From Octopus sinensis (lineage: Eukaryota), in the NCBI RefSeq assembly GCF_006345805.1, contig NW_021826056.1, positions 1 through 13,668 of the forward strand: a DNA stretch of 13,668 nucleotides. The letters run 5' to 3'. Under the pieces are notes generated by a model. It saw only the letters and a list, made by a program, of their open reading frames with translations. It was not told where the DNA came from and made no database searches. The translations under genes and the position numbers were made by a program. Below, piece after piece: positions 3,236-11,369 of the stretch. Positions within the stretch are counted from its first letter, which is position 1. Every line of letters starts with the position of its first letter.

Positions 3236-3518
3236 ACTTAGTGATACCAATTCGTAGTACCGTCTTAGCGTATGGACACACTTCGCAGTTAGCCCGTGGG
3301 CCCTGGCATCTAAAGGACCTAAAAATGATCTATGCATGTTTTGTCCTCATTGTGGTTTCTCGGTAGGTCACGTGCTGTTTTAATAAGTCGTGCTCATATC
3401 CATATTGCTTTTGATGGCCTGAGCACTCACAAGAGGAGGTCATCCGGTAAATTGAACGGTTGTAGAAGTAGTGTAGTAGTAGTATAGTCAGTAATGTTAT
3501 ATGTTTGGGATGGTTGCC

Positions 3519-4100
3519 AAACACAGAAGAGGAGGGACAAACAAGGACAGACAAACAGGATTAAGTCGATTACATCGACCCCAGTGCGTAACTGGTACTT
3601 AAATTATCGACCCCGAAAGGATGAAAGGCAAAGTCGACCTCTGCGGAATTTGAACTCAGAATGTAACGGCGACGAAATACTTATTTCTTTACTACCCACA
3701 AGGGGCTAAACACAGAGGGGATAAACAAGGAAGACAAACGGATATTATTAAGTAGATTACATCGACCCCAGTGCGTAACTGGTACTTAATTTATCGACCC
3801 CGAAAGGATGAAAGGCAAAGTCGACCTCTGCGGAATTTGAACTCAGAATGTAACGGCAGACGAAATACCTATTTCTTTACTACCCACAAGGGGCTAAACA
3901 CAGAGAGGATAAACAAGGACAGACAAACGGATTAAGTCGATTACGTCGACCCCAGTGCGTAACTGGTACTTAATTTATCGACCCCGAAAGGATGAAAGGC
4001 AAAGTCGACCTCTGCGGAATTTGAACTCAGAACGTAACGGCAGACGAAATACCGCTAAACATTTCGCCCAGCGTGCTAACACTTCTGCCAGCTCGCCGCC
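3519..4100 (-). mobile_element. Family C SINE tandem array: one head plus three ~180-bp units
   Basis: The head GGCGGCGAGCTGGCAGAAGTGTTAGCAC occurs once, at 4100. ATCGACCCCGAAAGGATGAAAGGCAAAGTCGACC recurs three times at about 185-bp spacing. Confidence 0.9.
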
Positions 4101-6975: not shown

Positions 6976-7495
6976 ATACAAATCTATATATACACATCTC
7001 GACATGCACCTATGCGCACCAAACTCATAGCCAAAGCTGTCTCATACAGTACATTTGTATACGTATACATATACATACGCACACACTTATACACACACGT
7101 TTATATGCATGTGAGTATTACGTATATATGCGTATGTATGTGGACATATACATATTCTTCATGCATCGCTATGCACATTCATGTGTATTTGTGTGTGTGT
7201 GTGTTGTGTGTGTGTGTGTGTGTGTGTGGTGTGATTGAAAATGCGATTATTGTTCTTTTGTATGGCTGTGTTTATGTGTGTATATGTATATGTATATGTA
7301 TATGCTTATTTATGTATGTGTAGATGTGCGCATGCTTACATATGTGTTGCTTACATGTATGTGTAAGCATGTGTACAAACGTGGATATGACTGTGTATAT
7401 ATATATATGTTCGCGCATGTGTGTAAATGACTGCGTGCATGTCAACGGCAGGAAGTATGCCGAAACCCGTGTATATAACACGTACACACATATTC

Positions 7496-7658
7496 CTATT
7501 TCTTTATTACCCACAAGGGGCTAAACATAGAGGGAACAAACAAAGACAGACATAAGTATTAAGTCGATTACATCGACCCCAGTGCGTAAGTGGTACTTAA
7601 TTTATCGACCCCGAAAGGATGAAAGGCAAAGTCGACCTCGGCGGAATTTGAACTCAGA
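7496..7658 (-). mobile_element. Family C SINE, 5'-truncated single unit with a 16-bp TSD
   Basis: Family C body flanked by the direct repeat ACGTACACACATATTC at 7480-7495 and 7659-7674. Confidence 0.9.
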
Positions 7659-8254
7659 ACGTACACACATATTCTAAGGCACCGCCCCCACAGACACACG
7701 CATACGCATACACACAGACACACAGACATTTCTTTATATGCGCGTATATCTTTAAGAGTGTACGAGCACCGATTCGTATATACCAACATGTTTCCTTATG
7801 AGCGTGCATGTGAATATATAATTACATGAGCTTACGAGTGCATACACGCGTGTATGTATATGTCTATGTATCTGTGCAAGTGTGTGAATGCGTGTGTGCA
7901 AAACGTATTTTTAATTATGCTGTTTTTCAGTACAATTCTATATATTTTCTCCATTTATAGGTGGCGCCATCGATAATGTAGCTACTGAAGCATAGTGTTT
8001 CTTTTTGTCAGTAACCTAGCAACGGAAATCTATCGATTTCTCCATCTTTTATTTTTGGTAATTACTTTAATTGATTGCCAGGTTTACAGTGTTAAGATGT
8101 CGCTGTCGTATCGACTTTTACTTTGATTTCCTCTCCTCAAGTGTTCACCTGCGCCTAATTATCTTACCAACAGTACGGCATAACGGACATCTAAGTGTTC
8201 CGATAAGTTCCACTCAAGGTCTTGAATCTGCTTGAATATTATCACACAATCTTT

Positions 8255-9300
8255 GCGAGCTGGCAGAAGCGTTAGCACACCGGGCGAAAAGATTTGTGGT
8301 ATTTCGTCCGCCGCTGCGTTCTGAGTTCACAAATCCGTTTGTGGGTAGTAAAGAAATAGGTATTTCGTCTTTATGTTCTGAGTTCAAATTCCGCCGAGGT
8401 CGACTTTGCCTTTCATCCTTTCGGGGTCGATAAATAAAGTACCAGCTACGGACTGGGGTCGATGTAATCGACTTAATCCGTTTGTCTGTCCTTGTTTGTC
8501 CGTCCTTGTTTGTCCTCTCTGTGGGTAGTAAAGAAATAGAAATAGGTATTTTGTCTGCCGCTACATTTTGAGTTCGAATTCCGCCGAGGTCGACTTTTTC
8601 CTTTCATCCTTTCGGGGCCGTTAAATTAAGTACCAGTTACGCACTGGGGTCGATATAATCGACTTAATCCGTTTGTCTGTCCTTGTTTGTCCTCTCTGTG
8701 TTTAGCCCCTTGTGGGTAGTAAAGAAATAGGTATTTCGTCTTTATGTTCCGAGTTCAAATTCCGCCGAGGTCGACTTCTGCCTTTCATCCTTTCGGGGTC
8801 GATAAATTAAGTACCAGCTACGCACTGGGGTCGATATAATCGACTTAATCCGTTTGTCTGTCCTTGTTCGTCCCCTCTGTGTTTAGCCCCTTGTGGGTAG
8901 TAAAGAAATAGGTATTTCGTCTGACTTTACGCTCTGAGTTCAAATTCCGCCGAGGTCGACTTTTCCCCTCATCCTTTCGGGGTCGATAACTAAAGTACCA
9001 GTTACGGACTGGGGTCGATGTAATCGACTTAATCCGTTTGTCTATCCTTGTTTGTCTGTCTTTGTTTGTCCTCTCTGTGTTTAGCCCCTTGTGGGTGGTA
9101 AAGAAATAGAAATAGGTATTTTGTCTGCCGCTACGTTTTGAGTTCGAATTCCGCCGCGGTCGACTTTTCCCCTCATCCTTTCGGGGTCGATAAATAAAGT
9201 ACCAGTTACGGACTGGGGTCGATGTAATCGACTTAATCCCTTTGTCTGTCCTTGTTTGTCCTCTCTGTGTGTAGCCCCTTGTGGGTAGTAAAGAAATAGG
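8255..9300 (+). mobile_element. Family C SINE tandem array: one head plus six units (the first internally deleted)
   Basis: The head GCGAGCTGGCAGAAGCGTTAGCAC occurs once. Units start at GGTATTT at ~8298, 8359, 8545, 8730, 8911 and 9115, each ending GTA/GGTAAAGAAATA. Confidence 0.92.
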
Positions 9301-9328
9301 TTGTCAGAACCATAGTTCCTGTATTTAG

Positions 9329-9497: not shown

Positions 9498-9805
9498 GGA
9501 GGCACATGGCCTAATGGTTAAAGCAGCGGACTCGCGGTCGAGGGATCGCGGGTTCGAATCTCAGACCGGGTGATGTGTGTGTTTATGAGCAAAACACCTA
9601 AGCTCTACGCGGCTCCAGCAGGAGGTAATGGCGAACTTCTGCTGACTCTTTCGCTACAACTTTTTCTCACTCTTCCTGCATCTAGCAGCTCACCTGCGAT
9701 GGAACGGCGTCCCGTCCAGGTGGGGTACCTATACGCCAATGAAACCGGGAAATCGGCCCATTATGAGCCAGGCATGAGCCGAAATGTTGTGGAAACAACA
9801 AACAA
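9498..9805 (+). mobile_element. tRNA-derived SINE with a family A head/body and a family-B-like 3' tail
   Basis: GGAGGCACATGGCCTAATGG (A box), GGGTTCGAATCTC (B box), family A body, then CTGCGATGGAACGGCGTCCCGTCCAG...GAAACCGGGAAATCGGCCCA, which matches the family B tail. Confidence 0.85.
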
Positions 9806-10104: not shown

Positions 10105-10132
10105 TATTTTTAACGTTCTTCTATATCTTTTA

Positions 10133-10558
10133 TAAGAAATACTAAATTTCTAAATCTCTCGTAGAGACATGTACGGTGGTGGGGCGATAGAATGGTTGTA
10201 TACTGTCAATCTAACACGAACGTGACAGTAGGGGGGTACACCACCGCTGTATAGCCCTAGGAAGCATCGACGCCTCCTGATGGCTTTGACACATTTTTCC
10301 CTGTGTCCTTATATACATTTACGAAGGGGAGACAAACACCCTAGGCCGATGAAGGACAATGATCCTGAAACACGGTGTCCCTAGATGCAGCTCCGGCGGC
10401 CGGGGGTGTTTGTCTCCCCTTCGAAAGTGTATATAAGGACACAGGGAAAAATGTGTCAAAGCCATCAGGAGGCGTCGATGCTTCCTAGGGCTATACAGCG
10501 GTGGTGTACCCCCCTACTGTCACGTTCGTGTTAGATTGACAGTATACAACCATTCTAT
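10133..10558. mobile_element. Non-autonomous fold-back element with a central hammerhead ribozyme (probable PLE/retrozyme-like derivative)
   Basis: 54-bp unique left end, inverted arms 10187-10341 and 10404-10558 (155 bp, about 2 mismatches), and a 62-nt loop holding the HHR. TSD ATCTTTTA at 10125-10132 and 10559-10566 (15 bp if microhomology is counted). Both termini match the copy at 10824-11286. Confidence 0.88.
10341..10384 (+). ncRNA. Type I hammerhead ribozyme motif
   Basis: Stem I CTAGG/CCTAG, core CCGATGA (U4>C), stem II AGGA-CAATGA-TCCT, GAAA, stem III ACAC-G-GTGT, GUC triplet with predicted cleavage after 10379. Confidence 0.85.
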
Positions 10559-10581
10559 ATCTTTTATGTTTTACCTTTTAC

Positions 10582-10716
10582 TTTTTCCAGCTGAGTGAAC
10601 TGGAGCGATGTGAAGTAAAGTGTTTTGCTCAAGGACACAACGCGTCGCCGGGAATTGAACTCACGATATTAAGATCGTGAGCCGAATACCCTAACCACTA
10701 GGCCATGCGCCTCTCC
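10582..10716 (-). mobile_element. Family B SINE, diverged, 3'-truncated
   Basis: Minus strand GGCGCATGGCCTAGTGGTTAGGG...GAGTTCAATTCC...GTGTCCTTGAGCAAAACACTTTACTTCACATCGCTCCAG. Confidence 0.85.
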
Positions 10717-10823
10717 ACCGTGTAAGAAATATTAGGTGGTTGACCAAGTTTTAGCGCTGCCTGCTTTTAAGCTCGACGTTTCGTGCCCATATTCCATTTT
10801 GCTGAAGAAATATTATTCTTTAA

Positions 10824-11286
10824 TAAGAAATATTGAATTTCTAAATCTCTCGTAGAGACATGTACGGTGGTGGAGCGATAGAATGGTAGTATACTGTCAA
10901 TCTAACAAGAACGTGACAGTAGGGGGTACACCACCGCTATATAGCCTAGGAAGCATCGAACGCCTCCTGATGGCTTTGACACATTTTTCCCTGTGTCCTT
11001 ATATACATTTACGAATGTATATAAGGACACAGGGGAAAATGTGTCAAAGCCATCAGGAGGCGTTCGATGCTTCCCGCTATATAGCCCTAGGAAGCATCGA
11101 CGCCTCCTGATGGCTTTGACACATTTTTCCCTGTGTCCTTATATACATACGAATGTGTATATAAGGACACAGGGAAAAATGTGTCAAAGCCATCAGGAGG
11201 CGTTCGATGCTTCCTAGGGCTATAAAGCGGTGGTGTACCCCCTACTGTCACATTCTTGTTAGATTGACAGTATACAACCATTCTAT
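10824..11286. mobile_element. Second copy of the fold-back element: ribozyme deleted, internal duplication (double hairpin)
   Basis: Same ends as 10133-10558 (TAAGAAATA...CCATTCTAT). 11-bp TSD TTATTCTTTAA at 10813-10823 and 11287-11297. Symmetry centres at ~11011 and ~11150. Confidence 0.88.
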
Positions 11287-11369
11287 TTATTCTTTAAATT
11301 TCGGGAAGTGAACTATCCACCAAACAAGTCTATTTGATCTGAGGCCGTGTGTTCAACACTGCAATCGTT

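What the first reader, a model, noticed from the sequence alone, without database searches (positions are those of the whole stretch)
10133..10558. Hammerhead ribozyme at the tip of a 155-bp hairpin in an ORF-less, TSD-flanked mobile element
Seen: near-perfect 155-bp inverted arms enclose a 62-nt loop that is mostly a type I hammerhead (CTAGG-CCGATGA-AGGA caatga TCCT-GAAACAC-G-GTGTC-CCTAG). Stem I connects to the long arm through a ~19-nt one-sided bulge that contains a small CCGG-CGG-CCGG hairpin. One arm has a 54-bp extension, so the inverted repeats are not terminal, and TSD length differs between the two copies (8 bp or more versus 11 bp). Established: minimal type I HHRs with a short, near-palindromic stem III mark Penelope-like pLTRs and metazoan retrozymes and often cleave as dimers. 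PLE insertions often carry an inverted pLTR and a one-sided tail. Inference: this looks like a MITE but is probably an RNA-mobilised, self-cleaving hairpin element. Matching ends in two independent insertions suggest the hairpin form is itself the mobile unit.
Basis: partly seen in the sequence, partly recalled or inferred. Interest (0 to 1): 0.9.

Follow-up and report, generated by a model that had tools for sequence, protein, structure and literature searches.

The report
Penelope-type retrozyme insertion, two-armed
This hairpin is one insertion of a small, protein-less, ribozyme-carrying jumping RNA. The two arms of such insertions almost always start from two different fixed points on the RNA, which suggests how Penelope-type transposons build their mirror-image ends. 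A separate one-gene element repeatedly lands just upstream of the ribozyme.

Summary
Observation confirmed: 155-bp arms (2 mismatches), 62-nt loop, type I hammerhead, 54-bp tail, target-site duplications (TSDs). The 'fixed hairpin mobile unit' reading is wrong. The unit is a ~366-nt ORF-less retrozyme-type monomer with roughly a thousand dispersed copies. Each hairpin is two 5'-truncated copies joined head to head at a variable point. Their outer ends lie at two fixed sites 54 nt apart, the Penelope-like element (PLE) 'tail'. New here: two-armed insertions almost always use one site per arm (34 of 36; contig C1, overlapping set, 18 of 19), while single arms use both sites equally. This points to coupled priming on both target strands. 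The hammerhead covaries across five related families but misses Rfam thresholds, carries U4C, and is truncated in this copy. Cleavage, circular RNA and the mobilising PLE are not shown. An ORF1-only element (two RRM-like domains plus CCHC knuckle, no RT) sits 30-46 nt upstream of the ribozyme core in four retrozyme families. The scan earlier reported similar palindromic mini-PLE insertions in another genome (e1-7858806). Verdict: new variant of a known kind; interest 0.58.

The parts
10119..10133 (+). Left copy of the target-site duplication of insertion 1 (15-nt direct repeat including microhomology with the element ends)
10133..10186 (-). 54-nt tail (segment a): the sequence between the two RT start sites; the outer end is start site 2 (inferred)
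   Evidence: analogy to PMC11167929
10187..10341 (-). Left arm: inverted 5'-truncated copy of monomer segment b, continuing the tail arm
10338..10341 (.). Head-to-head junction of the two arms (1-nt microhomology at C10341); the position varies between copies
10341..10385 (+). Type I hammerhead with U4C core (C3 = 10346, predicted cut after C10379); stem I truncated to 5 bp, natural UAC bulge and distal helix lost
10386..10403 (+). Orphan 3' strand of the natural extended stem I (its partner, segment X, is absent from this copy)
10404..10558 (+). Right arm, segment b in RNA sense; the 3' end at 10558 is RT start site 1 (inferred)
10553..10567 (+). Right copy of the target-site duplication of insertion 1
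10813..10823 (+). Left TSD (11 nt) of insertion 2
10824..11286 (.). Second, independent two-armed insertion of a sister subfamily: tail arm left, site-1 arm right, junction before the ribozyme (no hammerhead), internal ~140-bp duplication 10934-11214
11287..11297 (+). Right TSD (11 nt) of insertion 2

Best explanation
The element is one insertion of a non-autonomous Penelope-like retroelement (non-LTR retrozyme). SHOWN: the unit is a ~366-nt ORF-less monomer X-H-b-a (H = type I hammerhead), dispersed in about a thousand copies. Every arm is a 5'-truncated run of this monomer, up to 2.5-3 units long, whose 3' end lies at the end of b (site 1) or the end of a (site 2, 54 nt further on). Two-armed insertions are head to head, nearly always carry one arm from each site, and have 11-15-nt TSDs in AT-rich or (TA)n DNA. 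INFERRED: the RNA, probably a self-cleaved and re-ligated circle or a short multimer, is bound by a PLE RT/GIY-YIG dimer. The dimer nicks both target strands about 12 nt apart, and each 3'-OH primes reverse transcription at a different internal start site on the same or a sibling RNA. The two cDNAs stop at variable points and are joined through 0-4-nt microhomology, so the hairpin is built anew at each insertion. The window copy is probably a dead product with a truncated ribozyme. Class assignment about 0.9; coupled two-strand, two-site priming about 0.6; circular template about 0.55.
For: Monomer and arm maps. End classes in 87 insertions from end-unbiased queries: two-armed with both ends defined, site1+site2 34, site1+site1 2, site2+site2 0; single arms 15 site 2 and 16 site 1 (p about 1e-8). 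All exact motifs on contig C1: 18 of 19 head-to-head clusters mixed, none tail-to-tail (p = 4e-5; partly the same loci). Family 2: 9 mixed, 2 site2+site2, 1 ambiguous among 20 loci (read by eye). The site-1 arm reaches further 5' than the tail arm in 37 of 57, so neither arm is a simple copy of the other. The arms agree at subfamily sites in 662 of 684 cases against 61% for random pairs. 25 of 114 arms exceed one monomer, and 140 of 213 segments cross the cleavage site. Hammerhead covariation across five families: 15 of 18 pairs change on both sides, score 0.627 against 0.279 shuffled, including C3-G8 to U3-A8. Intact RT+GIY-YIG PLE ORFs that also end in (TA)n occur in the genome. PMC11167929 shows two internal RT start sites (= tail), nicking and extension of both strands, and a predicted dimer.
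Against: No autonomous PLE sharing sequence with the monomer was found in 42 PLE-containing loci; blastn and nhmmer hit only other retrozyme families. The ribozyme misses Rfam models, carries U4C (reported to lower activity, PMC3088659), and its MFE fold pairs core bases with loop III. Within the family the core is hardly more conserved than the rest (1.7% against 2.6% divergence, with a sample partly selected on the core). There is no excess of 5' stops at the cleavage site (9 of 213). 16 of the 52 two-armed insertions in the unbiased set had at least one end elsewhere and were left out of the 36; 4 single arms ended elsewhere. PMC11167929 saw no strand difference in start-site use in vitro. 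Arm concordance may only reflect subfamilies active at different times: private alleles shared between arms are few (13 shared, 188 not). The tail (54 nt) is longer than the 30-40 nt described for PLEs.
Confidence: 0.8

Rival explanations
1. Same element class, but the inverted arm arises by fold-back (self-priming) of a single cDNA started at site 2, with later deletion at the unstable palindrome tip.
For: It explains head-to-head geometry, arm concordance and one-sided tails. Self-priming was proposed in PMC3846280 (passages). The RNA is self-complementary around the ribozyme, and some junctions sit in the palindromic stem III (L017, L019).
Against: In 37 of 57 insertions the site-1 arm holds sequence absent from the tail arm, by up to several hundred nt (L058, L159). 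Only 2 of 57 are near-perfect mirrors. Site 1 is also used by single-arm insertions (16 of 31), so it is a priming site in its own right.
Confidence: 0.13
2. The hairpin itself is the mobile RNA unit.
For: Both outer ends are conserved in many copies; the first query returned 35 of 42 such copies, but it selects for them.
Against: The tip differs in nearly every copy, the ribozyme may be inverted, cut or absent, arm lengths run from 32 to 925 nt, and single-armed copies are common. No set of copies sharing one junction was seen.
Confidence: 0.03
3. The retrozyme RNA is mobilised by a non-PLE LINE (for example the unseen partner of the ORF1-only element), with inversions made by L1-type twin priming.
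For: No PLE partner was identified. An ORF1-type element is tightly associated with the family.
Against: There is no poly(A) or tandem-repeat 3' tail. L1 twin priming (recalled) inverts a 5' part without duplicating the 3' end, whereas here both arms begin at fixed internal sites and duplicate segment b. Tail plus inverted copy plus hammerhead is the PLE signature (PMC8557442, PMC11167929).
Confidence: 0.03
4. DNA-type MITE or fold-back transposon with a chance hammerhead-like loop.
For: Long inverted arms, no ORF, TSD.
Against: Termini are asymmetric, TSD length varies, the interior is variable, direct partial tandems and single arms occur, and the hammerhead covaries across families.
Confidence: 0.01

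Closest known systems
Metazoan non-LTR retrozymes (Cervera and De la Pena 2020, PMC7229834; Li et al. 2026, bioRxiv 10.64898/2026.07.22.740005)
   Same: ORF-less 150-450-nt monomer (here ~366 nt; mussel 350-390) with one type I hammerhead, a self-paired predicted fold, TSDs longer than 4 bp, co-occurring with PLEs.
   Different: Copies here are dispersed, 5'-truncated, one- or two-armed insertions of at most 2.5-3 units, with no long tandem array among the loci seen. The parts of those papers I read do not describe inverted arms, a tail or two start sites for retrozymes. The core is U4C. Expression as circular RNA is not shown here.
Endonuclease-bearing Penelope-like elements (PMC8557442, PMC3846280, PMC11167929)
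   Same: 5' truncation, partial tandems, inverted 5'-truncated copy, a tail on one end equal to the span between two internal RT start sites, AT-rich or microsatellite targets, and a hammerhead upstream of the start sites.
   Different: No RT or endonuclease; a 54-nt tail instead of 30-40; TSD 11-15 nt against the 8-10 nt cases in PMC3846280; a canonical-architecture rather than minimal hammerhead. The papers call the tail 'often' or 'optionally' one-sided, whereas here the one-site-per-arm coupling is counted against an independence null.
Canonical metazoan type I hammerhead (6-bp helix I, 4-bp helix II, short palindromic helix III; PMC4209133; Rfam RF00163)
   Same: Stem lengths, hexaloop II, palindromic helix III suited to dimer cleavage, C3-G8 pair covarying to U3-A8 in sister families.
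   Different: U4C fixed in this family (93 of the first 100 listed matches), A-U at 10.1-11.1, no Rfam hit. The window copy lacks the stem I bulge.
HAL1 (half-L1, ORF1-only; PMC5753468) and sequence-specific Tx1-clade LINEs, for the 1.73-kb insert found in relatives
   Same: Encodes only an ORF1-type protein (tandem RRM-like folds plus CCHC knuckle), makes 10-20-nt duplications, and inserts serially at one site.
   Different: The target is a retrozyme. Different insert families use different sequences at a similar position upstream of the hammerhead. No poly(A) tract, no autonomous partner identified, and loaded copies appear to be re-mobilised by the two-arm route at least once.

Membership tests
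Type I hammerhead ribozyme | Core C3-U4-G5-A6-N7-G8-A9, G12-A13-A14, A15.1-U16.1, H17 in type I order | tested here: met
   All present except U4C. U4C is a known, weakening natural variant (PMC3088659).
Type I hammerhead ribozyme | Stems I-III supported by covariation | tested here: met
   11 hand-picked sequences from five families: 15 of 18 pairs with two-sided change, 93.6% of cells paired, slid controls 26-45%. Relatedness inflates this. Stem III has only one varying pair.
Type I hammerhead ribozyme | Match to a Rfam hammerhead model at its gathering score | tested here: not met
   No hammerhead hit for the window or the intact copy L011. A homologous family hits RF00163 at 26.6 bits (E 4e-5), below the cut-off of 34.
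Type I hammerhead ribozyme | Self-cleavage after H17 | not testable with these tools
   No assay; only contigs were available for RNA.
Non-LTR retrozyme | 150-450-nt ORF-less monomer, under 50% GC, one type I hammerhead | tested here: met
   366 nt; region GC 0.43-0.44; no relevant ORF.
Non-LTR retrozyme | Head-to-tail tandem repeats with two or more ribozymes | tested here: inconclusive
   Partial dimers and trimers exist (L049, L062, L159, L176); no long array among 120 insertions.
Non-LTR retrozyme | TSD longer than 4 bp | tested here: met
   11-15 nt including microhomology in 18 of 18 non-microsatellite two-armed copies; 45 others lie in (TA)n and cannot be measured.
Non-LTR retrozyme | Expressed as linear and circular monomer RNA | not testable with these tools
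   No run on record as RNA, no raw reads.
PLE-type insertion (mobilised in trans) | Inverted 5'-truncated copy plus tail on one end, from two fixed 3' ends | tested here: met
PLE-type insertion (mobilised in trans) | AT-rich or microsatellite target | tested here: met
   89 of 120 insertions have (TA)4 at an end; the other TSDs are AT-rich.
PLE-type insertion (mobilised in trans) | Cis sequence shared with an autonomous PLE pLTR | tested here: inconclusive
   None in 42 loci from 11 GIY-YIG clusters, taken from the best 150 of 5029 candidates. Penelope/Poseidon-type families were not searched separately.
Autonomous Penelope-like element | ORF with RT and GIY-YIG endonuclease | tested here: not met
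   No such ORF in the element; the longer relatives carry an ORF1-type gene only.
MITE / DNA transposon | Symmetric terminal inverted repeats, fixed TSD length, fixed interior | tested here: not met
HAL1-like ORF1-only non-LTR element (insert in relatives) | Single ORF1-type protein without RT or endonuclease, flanked by a duplication | tested here: met
   ~1.73-kb unit; the longest ATG-start ORF measured is 447 aa; weak zf-CCHC hit below the Pfam cut-off; model with tandem RRM-like domains, pLDDT 83.
HAL1-like ORF1-only non-LTR element (insert in relatives) | Descent from, and mobilisation by, an L1/Tx1 element | tested here: inconclusive
   Relatives are 20-49% identical and unnamed, and none of 13 scanned carried RT or APE domains. 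L1 ORF1p was not among the listed fold matches.

The most novel reading that the evidence does not exclude
PLE integration is obligately asymmetric. One RT-endonuclease dimer on one small circular RNA primes the two target strands from two different internal sites, which would explain the tail and the inverted repeat of all PLEs. These retrozymes also host a dedicated hyperparasite: an ORF1-only retroelement lineage that finds a position 30-46 nt upstream of the hammerhead in sequence-unrelated retrozyme families, by RNA homology or structure rather than a fixed DNA motif, and is sometimes carried along by the PLE machinery.
Probability: 0.35. Interest if true: 0.82.

Novelty: new variant of a known kind. 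Interest (0 to 1): 0.58.

Why it matters
How PLEs form tandem and inverted ends and tails is stated as unresolved (PMC8557442), and the steps after initiation remain unvalidated (PMC11167929). A 366-nt, young, high-copy substrate whose two arms obey a one-site-per-arm rule gives a sharp prediction that the existing in vitro PLE system can test. It also links an invertebrate retrozyme to PLE machinery through insertion anatomy, where published links rest on co-occurrence and pLTR similarity in vertebrates. In practice, such elements are easily misannotated as MITEs and missed by Rfam. The ORF1-only insert, if confirmed, is a transposon that specialises on a ribozyme retroelement.

Tried and rejected
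Rfam: no hammerhead hit for the window or the intact copy; only hairpin-type miRNA models below their cut-offs.
Autonomous partner: blastn and nhmmer of the monomer against 42 PLE-containing loci found only other retrozyme families. The most abundant PLE family has a U3/A8 hammerhead-like motif and a ~35-nt tail, but no alignable sequence.
The longer relatives first taken for the autonomous partner encode only an ORF1-type protein.
Expression: no RNA holder listed. Contigs of three runs guessed to be RNA cover the monomer but cannot show strand, ends or circles; not used as evidence.
Run-off at the cleavage site: no excess. Selection on the core within the family: not shown. Same template molecule by private alleles: weak, 13 shared against 188 unshared between arms and 6 against 75 within arms. 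L190 has an allele in both repeats of one arm but not in the other arm.
The search for homologous proteins gave nothing for the insert ORF. The wide fold search gave only generic ferredoxin-like matches, best Z 8.3. The sigma-70 promoter scan is irrelevant for an animal genome.
Literature searches that listed no paper whose title or abstract start describes this family, the arm-coupling rule or a retrozyme-targeting ORF1-only element. The library lacks most subscription journals and Repbase/Dfam, so the family may already be catalogued. No supplements were read; the tables of the bioRxiv preprint and the supplementary figures of PMC7229834 and PMC11167929 may bear on this.

Full report
1. Observation. 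The anatomy is as reported. The arms are 10187-10341 and 10404-10558 (155 bp, 2 mismatches), the loop is 62 nt, and a 54-nt extension lies on the left. Direct repeats are 15 nt (6 overlapping the element end) around copy 1 and 11 nt around copy 2. A type I hammerhead descriptor finds exactly one hit in the window, with C3 at 10346 and the predicted cut after C10379. No hit with such stems occurred in 200 random windows. Rfam does not recognise it. The window is contig C2527 of a 2.72-Gb animal genome. I take it for a cephalopod from recalled repeat motifs only; no call shows that.

2. The real unit. A search with the element gave 2097 first-look candidates, 40 of them scored. Exact motif counts are 367 for the ribozyme core and stem II, and 1597 for the end of segment b, of which 962 continue into the tail. 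The reversed controls gave 0. Longer copies show a cyclic monomer X(93)-H(62)-b(157)-a(54) of 366 nt; X is absent from the window. X pairs with the end of H and the start of b. The natural ribozyme therefore has a 6-bp stem I, a UAC bulge and a long distal rod. The circular MFE is -123 kcal/mol against -89 +/- 6 for 60 mononucleotide shuffles. The window copy reads, left to right: an antisense arm (a, b), a junction at C10341, and a sense arm (last base of X, H, b). Its 'bulge' is the orphaned strand of that rod.

3. The hairpin is rebuilt at each insertion. In 57 simple two-armed insertions the two 5' stops are scattered over the whole monomer, arms are 32-925 nt long, and most junctions show 0-4 nt of overlap or a short gap. 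The ribozyme lies on either arm, or is cut or absent. Among 120 distinct insertions, the 87 found by queries blind to the ends divide as follows:
- 36 two-armed with both ends at a defined site: 34 site1+site2, 2 site1+site1, 0 site2+site2.
- 16 two-armed with an end elsewhere, left out of that count.
- 35 single-armed: 15 at site 2, 16 at site 1, 4 elsewhere.
Independent use of the sites would give half mixed pairs (p about 1e-8). All 96 exact motifs on contig C1 fall in 65 clusters: 19 head to head (18 mixed, 1 site2+site2), none tail to tail, and 46 on one strand (22 and 24). These overlap the first set, and some one-strand clusters may hide a mutated second arm. A sister family (360 nt, 59% identical, 2355 candidates) gave 9 mixed, 2 site2+site2, 1 ambiguous, 5 single-armed and 3 truncated among 20 loci, read by eye. 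TSDs are 11-15 nt in the 18 of 63 mixed insertions outside microsatellites, and 89 of 120 insertions touch (TA)n.

4. Mechanism. Frangieh et al. (PMC11167929; parts 1-2 of 4 read) showed that a PLE protein nicks and extends both strands of AT-rich DNA. It starts reverse transcription at two internal sites whose spacing is the genomic tail, it is predicted to be a dimer, and it does not need ribozyme cleavage in vitro. Craig et al. (PMC8557442, passages) and Arkhipova et al. (PMC3846280, passages) describe inverted 5'-truncated copies and one-sided tails; the latter favours self-priming. Here the site-1 arm reaches further 5' than the tail arm in 37 of 57 cases, less far in 18, and within 10 nt in 2. 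The tail arm in turn holds the tail, so in short copies neither arm can be a plain copy of the other. I infer two cDNAs, one primed from each target strand and each from a different site, joined by microhomology. The arms share subfamily alleles (662 of 684 against 61% for random pairs). That fits one RNA or sibling RNAs, but also subfamilies active at different times; shared private alleles are few (13 against 188). 25 of 114 arms exceed one monomer, 140 of 213 segments cross the cleavage site, and only 9 stop near it. The template is therefore a ligated circle or an uncleaved multimer; the data do not separate these.

5. The ribozyme. U4C is ancestral in this family: 93 of the first 100 listed matches (counted by eye), and the U4 cases are no more frequent than CpG decay. 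U4C lowers activity in vitro yet supports viroid infectivity (PMC3088659, passages and section 8). Five related families in this genome keep the fold with different sequences. An alignment of 11 hand-picked sequences has two-sided changes at 15 of 18 pairs, including C3-G8 to U3-A8, with a covariation score of 0.627 against 0.279 shuffled and at most 0.12 for slid controls. One family hits RF00163 below its cut-off and is homologous to the monomer by nhmmer (E 1e-11). The architecture matches the canonical metazoan type I form with a palindromic helix III that works as a dimer (PMC4209133, passages). Monomer folding predictions pair core bases with loop III, so weak monomer activity is expected. 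Activity was not tested.

6. Partner. The genome holds many GIY-YIG retroelements (5029 candidates, 150 scored), several with intact 775-781-aa RT+GIY-YIG frames. Their Cys-rich linker suggests the Neptune clade (label recalled), and they too end in (TA)n. None of 42 loci shares alignable sequence with the monomer, so the mobilising family is unknown.

7. An insert in relatives. Several copies carry a ~1.73-kb unit at X63-79. It encodes one protein of up to about 450 aa, with a weak CCHC knuckle hit and a confident model of two RRM-like domains, and no RT or endonuclease; this is an ORF1p-type layout (label recalled). Of 30 loci for its 3' end (224 candidates; some loci share an array), 27 are followed by the X target sequence. 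It makes 10-17-nt duplications and occurs as 1-5 serial units, 88-99% identical in the six arrays compared, with target remnants between them. Of 14 more diverged ORF hits, 9 are followed directly by a hammerhead of one of four retrozyme families. The distance from polyA signal to C3 is 41-46 nt in three families and 30 in the fourth, although the target sequences differ. One more is followed by a family-2 target remnant and another unit, one has family-2 tail sequence nearby, and 3 lie in other contexts. Where the opposite arm spans the site, it is empty in 7 insertions and loaded in 1 (L239). This favours insertion into genomic copies with occasional re-mobilisation (also L235, L067). HAL1 (PMC5753468, passages) is the nearest described kind.

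8. Comparison and novelty. The element works like an endonuclease-bearing PLE insertion and fits the non-LTR retrozymes (PMC7229834, parts 2-3 of 6 and passages; bioRxiv 10.64898/2026.07.22.740005, parts 1-3 of 5). Circular RNA and tandem arrays are unproven here. It is neither a MITE nor an autonomous PLE. The class is known, and the scan has noted similar palindromes in another genome. What I did not find in print (a limited library without Repbase or Dfam) is the counted one-site-per-arm rule and a retrozyme-targeting ORF1-only element. Verdict: new variant of a known kind, interest 0.58.

Noticed in passing
L186-L191, L194-L241, L263-L276: ORF1-only ~1.73-kb element (RRM-like x2 plus CCHC) inserted, often serially, just upstream of the hammerhead in four retrozyme families; many copies keep intact frames.
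   Followed up: yes
L113:5742-6294 (-), L243-L262: Second retrozyme family, 360 nt, U3/A8 core, 2355 first-look candidates, same two-site anatomy with a tail of about 58 nt.
   Followed up: partly
L109:5500-5790, L267, L268, L271, L078, L079, L093, L101: Further hammerhead-bearing retrozyme-like families with other stems; one core reads UUGACGA (U3 with G8) in L267 and L268.
   Followed up: partly
L107:636-5479 and L110-L112, L115, L116: Young high-copy RT+GIY-YIG PLE with an upstream reading frame, CCAAT/TGACGT/TATA-like motifs after the ORF, a U3/A8 hammerhead-like motif, a ~35-nt tail and (TA)n targets.
   Followed up: partly
L231:4975-7727: A different ~1.37-kb serial unit that shares the insert's 3' ~380 nt and keeps the same target remnant between units.
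   Followed up: no
L263, L265: Diverged ORF1-only copies are followed by a short tandem repeat rather than a retrozyme, suggesting other target specificities in the lineage.
   Followed up: no
window 3494-4053, 7488-7668, 8352-9310, 1186-1434: A ~180-bp dispersed repeat in tandem runs of 3-5 units and in both orientations; SINE-like by recall.
   Followed up: no
window 10570-10730 and 9500-9780: Fragments of tRNA-like SINE-type repeats (label recalled) flank the two insertions; the two retrozyme insertions lie only ~265 bp apart.
   Followed up: no
monomer position H33 (window 10374): Loop III indel polymorphism: about 64 of 110 insertions have the extra G; the rest have a perfect palindrome.
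   Followed up: partly
runs X15-X20: The sequence is held in runs of five coded organisms (A-E), so the family is probably not confined to one species; only four runs were laid.
   Followed up: no
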